A stretch of 57,010 bases of DNA from assembly GCA_036513055.1 (NCBI GenBank), contig DATBZT010000026.1:1-57010 (forward strand). The letters are read 5' to 3'. Below the pieces are notes generated by a model that ran no database searches, was not told the origin of the DNA, and worked only from the letters and a program-made list of their open reading frames with translations. A program made the position numbers and the translations under genes. Of this stretch, positions 4,709 to 6,165 are shown piece by piece; within the stretch, counting starts at the first letter, position 1, and every line of letters begins with the position of its first letter. The stretch is from Gemmatimonadaceae bacterium (GTDB taxonomy: Bacteria; Gemmatimonadota; Gemmatimonadetes; Gemmatimonadales; Gemmatimonadaceae).

Positions 4709-5323
4709 CTAATGGCGCTTGCCGTTGCTATTGCCGTTGCCGACGTTCTGGTCGTACCACGGGCCTGACGTGTTGTTATAGGTGCCGCCGTTATTGTAGC
4801 GGCCGTTTTCGTCGCCATCGTTATCCTGTTTGCCCTTGTTGCCCTTCACCTTGTTGTACTTGCAGTTGGTGCTGTAGCCATTCTTGTTCTGCTTGTAGTT
4901 GCAGGTCTCGCCGTTTTGACCGTAAACGGTGTTGTTGCGGCGTGAATTCTGGTTCACGGCCTGACTGTTGGTGATGACGAGCCGGCCATTCGAATCCTGG
5001 CGCGCCGTATCCACAATCACGTTTCCGTTGCCGTCAACGCGCTGGCGCTGGTAGATCGTATTGCCGTTCTGGTCGCGACCCATCACCTGCCATGACCCAT
5101 CGCTCGTGGTGCCGCCGTTGCGGCTGTTCGAGGTCTGGCAATTCACGTCGTACCAGACGCAATTCGTACCGACCTGATCGCGGCTGTCGATGACGCCGTC
5201 GCCGTTCCGGTCGTAAACGCCGCTGCTATTGCGGTTCTTGCCGTGACTGGCCTGCGCCGACAGCGGGGTCGAAACGGCCGCGACGGTTGCAAGGCTCAGG
5301 ACAAGCATCAATTGGTTTTTCAT
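4709..5323 (-). CDS. Secreted Asn/Gly-rich hypothetical protein with a DxNGDG (EF-hand-like) motif
   Basis: Signal peptide ending near LSAQA, GAGGAG RBS, DRNGDGVIDSRD, repeated D/QxNG turns, two Cys pairs. Confidence 0.8.
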   Translation of the reverse strand: MKNQLMLVLSLATVAAVSTPLSAQASHGKNRNSSGVYDRNGDGVIDSRDQVGTNCVWYDVNCQTSNSRNGGTTSDGSWQVMGRDQNGNTIYQRQRVDGNGNVIVDTARQDSNGRLVITNSQAVNQNSRRNNTVYGQNGETCNYKQNKNGYSTNCKYNKVKGNKGKQDNDGDENGRYNNGGTYNNTSGPWYDQNVGNGNSNGKRH

Positions 5324-5357: not shown

Positions 5358-5729
5358 TCAGCGTTCCAGCTCGGTCTTGCCTTTTTTCGGCTTTTCTTTT
5401 CCCTTCTTCGAGAACTCGTCGCCGAAAATGACACGACCGCTTGCCGGGCGGTTGCGAACCGCGGTTACGCAGTCGGTCGGAGCGGGCTGCTGGTCGGGAG
5501 GAACACCCTCGATCCAGATCCTGCACATCCCCTGAGGGGGCAGATATGCCGACGGAACTGCCGGCTGTCCCTTCGACGAAGGCTTCGGGAATTGCGGGAT
5601 TGGAAAGCCCCGCGGAATCCCCTGAGCCTCCGCCGATCCGCTCACCGCGAGGATCCCCGCGGCGAGCAGAAGGAACCGCCATCTATCCATCTTTTCCGCG
5701 GTTGCCCGCAGAAATTCAAGGTTGGTCAT
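5358..5729 (-). CDS. Secreted Pro-rich hypothetical protein (LPPxGMCRIWIxGVPPxQQPAPTDC domain)
   Basis: Signal-like RFLLLAAGILAVSGSAEA. Start at 5729 or 5690; the ORF-track extension to 6023 overlaps a promoter and the selenoprotein gene. Confidence 0.72.
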   Translation of the reverse strand: MTNLEFLRATAEKMDRWRFLLLAAGILAVSGSAEAQGIPRGFPIPQFPKPSSKGQPAVPSAYLPPQGMCRIWIEGVPPDQQPAPTDCVTAVRNRPASGRVIFGDEFSKKGKEKPKKGKTELER

Positions 5730-5922: not shown

Positions 5923-6165
5923 CTACCGGTGCTGGCCGGCTTCAGCCTTTGCGATCGACTGTGCGATCTCGCCCGGTCTGGCGTGACGCCCCGTTTTCGA
6001 CTTCTCGAATATCGGCCGGCCATCGACTGACACTTCGAAGCGCCCGCCGCGCGAAGGAGTCAGCTCAATCTCCGCGGCTGGGTACACATCTCTGAGCTCA
6101 GCCGCCAGACTGGCGGCTCGGGGCTCGTAGTTTCAAACGGTGCAGTATTCGATCTCGATTTTCAT
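5923..6165 (-). CDS. Rdx/SelW/SelT-family selenoprotein, 80 aa, Sec at codon 11
   Basis: MKIEIEYCTV(U)NYEPRAASLAAELRDVYPAAEIELTPSRGGRFEVSVDGRPIFEKSKTGRHARPGEIAQSIAKAEAGQHR. CxxU motif, GxFEV motif, in-frame TGA at 6133-6135, SECIS-like hairpin downstream. Confidence 0.92.
6094..6126 (-). promoter_or_regulatory. Bacterial SECIS element
   Basis: AGCCGCCA-GUC-UGGCGGCU upper stem with a G-first loop 22 nt after the UGA, plus a lower GAGC/GCUC stem. Confidence 0.82.

What the first reader, a model, noticed from the sequence alone, without database searches (positions are those of the whole stretch)
5923..6165. Hidden selenoprotein: Rdx/SelW-like CxxU gene with SECIS, absent from the ORF track
Seen: ATG at 6165, codons 8-11 read C-T-V-TGA, the frame stays open for 69 more codons containing GGRFEV, and a GUC-loop hairpin sits 22 nt after the UGA. 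Known: Rdx-family proteins carry CxxC/CxxU plus GxFEI/V, and bacterial Sec insertion needs a SECIS just 3' of the UGA. Inference: the organism recodes UGA as Sec and has a standalone selenium redox protein that ordinary gene callers miss; no sel genes are in this window.
Basis: partly seen in the sequence, partly recalled or inferred. Interest (0 to 1): 0.85.

Follow-up and report, generated by a model that had tools for sequence, protein, structure and literature searches.

The report
Known-family SelW-like selenoprotein gene
This is a real 80-codon bacterial gene whose internal UGA stop codon is very likely read as selenocysteine, giving a small, predicted redox protein of the well-known SelW/Rdx family; gene callers cut it short, but it is ordinary.

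Summary
Observation confirmed. Window 6165-5923 (minus strand) reads C-T-V-TGA at codons 8-11, then 69 codons including GGRFEV. Read through, it passes the cut-offs of Pfam Rdx, TIGR02174 and NF041051, and its model matches solved SelW-related proteins (TM 0.86). TGA sits at this position in 60 of 60 homologous loci from the same order and 80 of 80 loci across phyla. The hairpin fits the published bacterial SECIS model and is under RNA-level selection: 4 of 7 pairs show compensatory changes. The genome has selB, selD and tRNA-Sec. selA was not found, but its two flanking genes run off contig ends. In 150 class genomes the TGA form occurs in 90 of 140 with selA and 0 of 10 without. Closest relatives are Gemmatimonadaceae. 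The family was described in bacteria by 2005, and a Campylobacter member was shown to be translated through its UGA. The substrate is unknown. One small point of interest: this genus keeps Sec although formate dehydrogenase was found in only 1 of 36 genomes. Verdict: real, new member of a known family, low interest.

The parts
5923..6165 (-). Gene for an 80-aa SelW-like/Rdx selenoprotein (ATG to TAG)
   Evidence: PF10262 E 8.9e-21; NF041051 96.7 bits vs cut-off 88, TIGR02174 64.4 vs 34.2
6142..6144 (-). Cys8, first residue of the CxxU motif
   Evidence: TGC/TGT in 60 of 60 loci; invariant in the 48-row alignment
6133..6135 (-). In-frame TGA, codon 11, inferred selenocysteine
   Evidence: TGA in 60 of 60 order-level loci and 80 of 80 cross-phylum loci; aligns to the second Cys of CxxC in 2FA8, 2LJK and 3DEX
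6100..6118 (-). SECIS upper stem (6118-6112 paired with 6106-6100) and apical loop AGUCU (6111-6107), with conserved G-U at 6110-6109
   Evidence: 95.2% of cells paired, 4 of 7 pairs compensatory, 0 of 500 shuffles reach it; synonymous constraint peaks at codons 16-22; coordinates
6094..6126 (-). Extended hairpin with a 4-bp lower stem, predicted in this gene but poorly conserved
   Evidence: lower helix only 67.9% paired across homologs
6031..6048 (-). GGRFEV, the GxFE(I/V) motif of the Rdx family
   Evidence: G41 and F43 invariant, G40, E44 and V45 at least 90% conserved

Best explanation
The gene likely makes a full-length 80-residue, probably cytoplasmic, SelW/Rdx-family selenoprotein: SelB likely binds the conserved G-U loop hairpin just downstream of the UGA and delivers Sec-tRNA, so codon 11 is likely read as selenocysteine, and the resulting Cys8-x-x-Sec11 site on a predicted thioredoxin-like fold likely works as a thiol-disulfide oxidoreductase. 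Shown here: the ORF, family membership, TGA conservation, RNA-level selection on the hairpin, and selB, selC and selD in the genome. Inferred: actual Sec insertion in this organism, and the presence of selA in the unassembled gap. Also inferred, the catalytic cycle: the Sec selenolate attacks an oxidised cysteine or disulfide in a partner protein, Cys8 resolves the mixed intermediate to a selenenylsulfide, and the cell's thiol reducing system recycles it. The most likely role is general repair or regulation of oxidised protein thiols, not service to one dedicated selenoperoxidase. I put about 0.97 on Sec recoding and about 0.8 on oxidoreductase activity. The substrate is not identified.
For: Family. 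[quoted passage not shown] TGA in 60 of 60 and 80 of 80 loci. SECIS fits the consensus in PMC13188914 Fig. 2 legend: 3-9 nt loop, 4-16 bp stem, N1-G-[G/U]-N-N2 pattern, 16-37 nt spacing, MFE at most -7.5. Covariation. Synonymous identity 0.79 vs 0.30 expected at codons 17-22, against 0.48 vs 0.42 elsewhere, in 57 loci; codon 19 is AGT or GGT in 57 of 57, so the amino acid changes while the loop G-U stays. The same register pairs in 63 distinct non-Gemmatimonadota sequences: 73.5% vs 57.0% shuffled, 0 of 1000. selB 352 bits, selD 374 bits with its own in-frame TGA, tRNA-Sec 68.9 bits. Co-occurrence with selA: 90 of 140 vs 0 of 10; the one stop-free Rdx in the class draw is a CxxC form in a selA-less genome. 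C. jejuni SelW translation past UGA shown by Ribo-seq and proteomics (PMC11955535). The CxxC homolog MIEN1 has a measured potential of -225 mV (PMC3527542).
Against: selA is not in the assembly; the gap explanation is inferred from flanking genes at the ends of C189 and C133. In the relatives draw three other genomes with the TGA gene also lack a selA hit over cut-off (G011 69%, G054 85%, G040 95% complete), and I did not check their gaps. No expression evidence: the single RNA run laid covers only 5600-5726, not this gene. Column shuffles ignore relatedness, and the Fisher p of 6e-5 treats kin as independent. The planned Cys-homolog control for the hairpin was empty (0 Cys forms among 80 loci). 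No biochemical function was found for a bacterial SelW-like protein in the papers read; the 2026 review calls these functions largely uncharacterised.
Confidence: 0.85

Rival explanations
1. Sec is inserted, but the protein is mainly a redox-switched binding adaptor or a metal/selenium-binding protein, not a turnover oxidoreductase.
For: No catalytic assay exists in what I read for bacterial members. Mammalian SELENOW binds 14-3-3 through its Sec (PMC8508763, abstract start in the listing). K55, R60 and H61 are invariant and could form a binding surface.
Against: Thioredoxin-like fold with CxxU at the thioredoxin active-site position; the homolog MIEN1 is redox-active. The two readings are not exclusive.
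Confidence: 0.1
2. The Rdx is the dedicated reductant of the genome's Sec-containing peroxiredoxins, or a partner of the small secreted two-Cys protein encoded downstream.
For: The genome has two AhpC-TSA genes and one CMD/AhpD-like gene with in-frame TGA. Prx and SELENOW-like genes are reported to cluster in some metagenomes. The downstream gene lies within about 1.5 kb in 24 of 30 closest loci.
Against: The peroxiredoxin has TGA in only 8 of 70 class genomes with a match, while the Sec-Rdx is in 90. The downstream gene is kept in genomes without Rdx or selA (G152, G194), was found in only 3 of 33 genomes of the next family, and has a signal-peptide-like start that the Rdx lacks.
Confidence: 0.03
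3. UGA is read as another amino acid (Trp by a changed genetic code, or Cys by a special tRNA), so the protein is not a selenoprotein.
For: Five database relatives carry W, one C and one R at this position. Cys insertion at UGA by Sec-like tRNAs is recalled from the literature; I did not test tRNA identity elements.
Against: 25 of the 30 closest orthologs end on a TGA stop, so UGA is not globally reassigned. Three of the W entries also end in an extra W, the mark of calling with code 4. The position aligns with Cys in solved homologs, and the gene tracks selA.
Confidence: 0.015
4. The TGA is a nonsense mutation or sequencing error, or only the truncated C-terminal ORF is made.
For: selA is missing from the assembly; most database entries are the truncated form.
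Against: Same TGA in 60 of 60 and 80 of 80 loci, with intact frames at 47-76% protein identity. The ten codons before the TGA are conserved as protein. No variant at 6133-6135 in contigs of three DNA runs; one record bridges the codon by the tool's 31-letter rule.
Confidence: 0.005

Closest known systems
Bacterial SelW-like (SELENOW-like) selenoproteins: Pfam Rdx PF10262, NCBIfam TIGR02174 CXXU_selWTH and NF041051 SelTWH_Campy (PMC1088965, PMC1794560, PMC13188914; passages seen)
   Same: CxxU near the N terminus, GxFEV, about 75-80 aa, single domain, in-ORF bacterial SECIS, missed or truncated by annotation. All three model cut-offs are passed.
   Different: Nothing categorical. The host is a Gemmatimonadaceae-like bacterium by the titles of its closest records. 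I found no paper describing the family in this phylum (searches; no 'Gemmatimonad' in the 2026 review's main text). Supplementary tables of large surveys, which I did not see, may list it.
Campylobacter jejuni SelW on CJnc60 (PMC11955535, passages; PMC4607533, passages)
   Same: 80-aa SelW, unannotated, needs UGA decoding; ribosome profiling and proteomics confirmed full-length translation.
   Different: Different phylum; the sequences were not compared directly here. No expression data for the present gene.
Solved Cys-type SelW-related proteins 2FA8, 2OBK, 2OJL, 2OKA, 2P0G, 3DEX; human MIEN1 2LJK; mouse SelW 2NPB
   Same: Same fold (TM 0.81-0.88 to the bacterial ones) and motif position; 30-39% identity.
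   Different: The three aligned here (2FA8, 2LJK, 3DEX) have CxxC; the bacterial ones are 103-108 aa long. This protein has Sec and is shorter.

Membership tests
Rdx / SelW-like family (PF10262, TIGR02174, NF041051) | Profile score above the curated cut-off over the whole domain | tested here: met
   74.3 vs 22.6; 64.4 vs 34.2; 96.7 vs 88 bits (Sec scored as Cys)
Rdx / SelW-like family (PF10262, TIGR02174, NF041051) | N-terminal CxxC/CxxU after the first strand | tested here: met
   C8-T-V-TGA; aligns with CxxC of 2FA8, 2LJK, 3DEX
   GGRFEV at residues 40-45; G41 and F43 invariant in 48 rows
Rdx / SelW-like family (PF10262, TIGR02174, NF041051) | [quoted passage not shown] | tested here: met
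   Predicted model, pLDDT 89.3; Foldseek TM 0.86, rmsd about 1 A to 2FA8. A prediction, not a solved structure.
Rdx / SelW-like family (PF10262, TIGR02174, NF041051) | Redox activity of the motif | not testable with these tools
   Needs purified protein
Bacterial selenoprotein gene | In-frame UGA conserved in homologs and aligned to Cys | tested here: met
   60 of 60 and 80 of 80 TGA; Cys in G143 and in solved homologs
Bacterial selenoprotein gene | [quoted passage not shown] | tested here: met
   Criteria from PMC13188914 Fig. 2 legend; 7-8 bp stem, loop AGUCU or GUC at 21-22 nt, -20.9 kcal/mol. bSECISearch itself was not available.
Bacterial selenoprotein gene | selB, selC and selD in the genome | tested here: met
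   selB on C371, selD and tRNA-Sec on C99; their GC3 of 0.69-0.74 matches the window's 0.70-0.77
Bacterial selenoprotein gene | selA in the genome | tested here: inconclusive
   No hit in an 82.5% complete assembly; the genes flanking selA in 8 of 8 relatives' loci map to the end of C189 and the start of C133; 33 of 36 genus members have it
Bacterial selenoprotein gene | Sec in the protein product | not testable with these tools
   Needs 75Se labelling or mass spectrometry

The most novel reading that the evidence does not exclude
In this soil and peat Gemmatimonadaceae genus the SelW-like Rdx, not formate dehydrogenase, is the selenoprotein that keeps the Sec machinery under selection. FdhA was found in 1 of 36 genus genomes, selA in 33 of 36 and the Sec-Rdx in 32 of 36, and the two genomes lacking both selA and selB (G018, G029) also lack the Rdx. 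That would make the genus a natural test case for what bacterial SelW actually does. Against it: Sec-containing SelD is the published explanation for FdhA-less Sec users (PMC1794560) and is present here. Loss of Rdx with the machinery is expected under either reading. At class level 125 of 151 genomes have FdhA and 50 of 140 selA-positive genomes have no Rdx hit.
Probability: 0.2. Interest if true: 0.4.

Novelty: new member of a known kind. Interest (0 to 1): 0.17.

Why it matters
Modestly. It corrects an annotation gap that recurs in about 60% of the Gemmatimonadetes-class genomes sampled. It shows Sec use is near-universal in that class (selA in 140 of 150), which I did not find stated in the papers searched. 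It also gives a clean example of a coding-region SECIS with compensatory changes at synonymous sites. It adds no new family or mechanism, and the open question, the substrate of bacterial SelW, is not made easier to test in an uncultured organism.

Tried and rejected
Single-sequence structure prediction gave pLDDT 57.8 and was not used. A Cys-homolog control for the hairpin failed because all 80 fetched loci had TGA. Two selD and two tRNA-Sec genes first looked like a duplication. However, the genes of C319 and C140 have second copies elsewhere at about 38-79% identity and higher GC3 (0.84-0.87), so those contigs are most likely from another organism in the bin. The idea of a class-wide selenium antioxidant relay without FdhA was rejected, as was the downstream secreted protein as a dedicated partner. 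The promoter scan found no sigma-70-like site on the gene's strand; two terminator-like sites were found against 0.6 expected and are not interpreted. The only RNA run had a share of 0.13 and does not cover the gene, so it gives no evidence either way; 4 of 24 listed runs were laid. No complex prediction was run, as no partner was supported. Look-ups of earlier scan findings by sequence and by genome returned nothing. One literature search returned no papers.

Full report
Observation. On the minus strand an ATG at 6165 opens a frame that reads Cys-Thr-Val-TGA at codons 8-11, continues for 69 sense codons including GGRFEV, and ends at TAG 5923. A plain ORF list does not show it. The 51 nt from the UGA fold at -20.9 kcal/mol with a GUC loop 22 nt after the UGA (z -2.9; 2 of 200 shuffles as good).

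Family. With the UGA read through, the protein scores 74.3 bits on Pfam Rdx (cut-off 22.6), 64.4 on TIGR02174 (34.2) and 96.7 on NF041051 (88). Seven solved structures match by sequence, and in the three alignments shown the UGA falls on the second Cys of CxxC. [quoted passage not shown] It superposes on SelW-related proteins 2FA8, 2OBK and 2OJL at TM 0.81-0.88. The closest titled records are Gemmatimonadaceae/Gemmatimonadota (65-82% identity for the top eight). The neighbours include a DEAD-box helicase and a GspH-like pseudopilin gene, so the setting looks chromosomal. Runs that hold the region are peat, soil and permafrost metagenomes.

The UGA is not an error or a lesion. 57 of 61 genomes in the relatives draw have the gene. 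All 60 loci (this one included, three of them contig-end fragments) have TGA at codon 11 and Cys at codon 8. 25 of the 30 closest genes end on a TGA stop, so UGA is not globally reassigned. Database relatives are mostly truncated calls that begin after the UGA. Of the seven top hits that span it, five have W (three also with an extra terminal W, typical of code-4 calling), one C and one R; I could not see the DNA of those entries.

The SECIS. A hairpin alone means little here: 544 of 1760 arbitrary TGA contexts pass a loose rule. Conservation is what counts. In 59 of the 60 loci (one too short; 56 distinct) a 7-bp stem is 95.2% paired, 4 of 7 pairs have compensatory changes, no shuffle of 500 reaches the paired fraction, and slid registers give 17-59%. 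The outermost pair uses the third positions of Arg16 and Ala22 and occurs as A-U 24, G-C 13, C-G 8 and U-A 1, unpaired 10. The lower stem is weak (67.9%). In 57 full-length genes synonymous identity at codons 17-22 is 0.79 against 0.30 expected, versus 0.48 against 0.42 elsewhere. Codon 19 is AGT (28) or GGT (29), keeping the loop G-U while the amino acid changes. 35 of 57 segments fold better than synonymous recodings by z below -1, against 8 of 57 for a control segment. After dropping 10 Gemmatimonadota-titled loci and 2 with an insertion, 63 distinct sequences from other phyla still pair in this register (73.5% vs 57.0% shuffled), with NGT at codon 19 in 37 of 63. These shuffles ignore relatedness. 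The element meets all four criteria of the consensus model in the Fig. 2 legend of PMC13188914 (passages).

Machinery. The assembly (3.0 Mb, 398 contigs, 82.5% complete) has selB on C371, and selD with its own in-frame TGA next to tRNA-Sec on C99. A second selD/tRNA-Sec pair (C319) and a selB fragment (C140) look like bin contamination. selA was not found, but the genes on either side of selA in eight relatives map to the last bases of C189 and the first bases of C133, which places selA in a gap. 33 of 36 genus genomes have selA. In a draw of 150 class genomes at least 90% complete, 140 have selA. The TGA-type Rdx is in 90 of those and in none of the other 10, and the only stop-free Rdx is a longer CxxC form in a selA-less genome (two of the 90 are partial matches). 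Against this, three other genomes in the relatives draw have the TGA gene without a selA hit over cut-off (G011, G040, G054); all three have selB matches (G054 only partial), and I did not check their gaps.

Mechanism. By established bacterial Sec biology (PMC1794560, passages), SelB carrying Sec-tRNA binds the SECIS and decodes the UGA. The product likely stays in the cytoplasm, since it starts directly with strand 1. The CxxU site likely cycles between reduced and selenenylsulfide states to reduce oxidised protein thiols. This is inferred from the fold, the motif and the measured -225 mV potential of the homolog MIEN1 (PMC3527542, passages). I tested two candidate partners and neither is supported. 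The Sec-peroxiredoxin has TGA in only 8 of 70 class genomes with a match. The downstream secreted two-Cys protein is a family-level neighbour that persists without the Rdx.

What is known. SelW-like CxxU proteins were the most abundant selenoprotein family in the Sargasso Sea data (48 genes; PMC1088965, passages). Ten were found in sequenced bacteria, with few Cys forms in Sec users (PMC1794560). SelW genes were reported as completely missed by annotation in epsilon-proteobacteria (PMC4607533, passages), and C. jejuni SelW was shown to be translated through its UGA (PMC11955535, passages). The 2026 review lists the family under PF10262 as predicted with high confidence and with function largely uncharacterised. 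Searches for Gemmatimonad plus selenoprotein or selenocysteine terms (listings only) showed no paper on this family in the phylum. I read no supplements, and large surveys may list it there. An earlier scan report on another Gemmatimonadales-like genome reached the same verdict; it is not independent evidence.

Most novel reading. This genus seems to have lost FdhA (1 of 36) while keeping selA (33 of 36) and the Rdx (32 of 36). Two genomes lack selA, selB and the Rdx together. The Rdx could be the gene that keeps Sec in use here. However, Sec-SelD is the published explanation for FdhA-less Sec users and is present, and most of the class has FdhA (125 of 151). Probability 0.2.

Verdict. Real gene, correct interpretation, new member of a known family. 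Interest 0.17.

Noticed in passing
window 5358-5690 (-), possibly starting at 5729: Small protein with a signal-peptide-like start and a conserved two-Cys, proline-rich core; no Pfam or NCBIfam hit. Found in 11 of 11 genomes of the same family and near the Rdx in 24 of 30 closest loci, but also where the Rdx is absent. An unnamed family.
   Followed up: partly
window 4709-5323 (-): Secreted-looking 204-aa Asn/Gly-rich protein with no family hit; similar ORFs follow the two-Cys gene in up to 13 of 30 loci.
   Followed up: no
G000:C295 TGA at 2471 (+), L093: CMD/AhpD-like gene with CxxU-type in-frame TGA and a hairpin with a GGUC loop; PF02627 E 7e-9 when read through. Likely selenoprotein; conservation not tested.
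   Followed up: partly
G000:C67 TGA at 5262 (-) and G000:C48 TGA at 903 (-): Two AhpC-TSA family genes with TxxU-type in-frame TGA. The C67 type has TGA in only 8 of 70 class genomes with a match, including one of three others in the genus, which suggests patchy Cys/Sec interchange.
   Followed up: partly
G000:C319 and C140: Contigs whose genes duplicate genes elsewhere in the assembly at about 38-79% identity with higher GC3, including a Cys-type selD with a second tRNA-Sec; probably from a second Gemmatimonadota organism in the bin.
   Followed up: yes
L026, L029, L035 and others (15 of 30 loci): A phosphofructokinase-like gene (label recalled from its sequence, not searched) lies directly downstream of the Rdx, between it and the two-Cys gene; an aminopeptidase-like gene (also recalled) lies upstream in 16.
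   Followed up: no
P0002 and P0007: Two close database relatives have C or R at the Sec position on single short contigs; either rare Sec-to-Cys changes or one-base errors from TGA.
   Followed up: no
genus g1, G001-G036: Formate dehydrogenase alpha found in 1 of 36 genus genomes but 23 of 24 genomes of two other families in the order, while selA is kept.
   Followed up: partly
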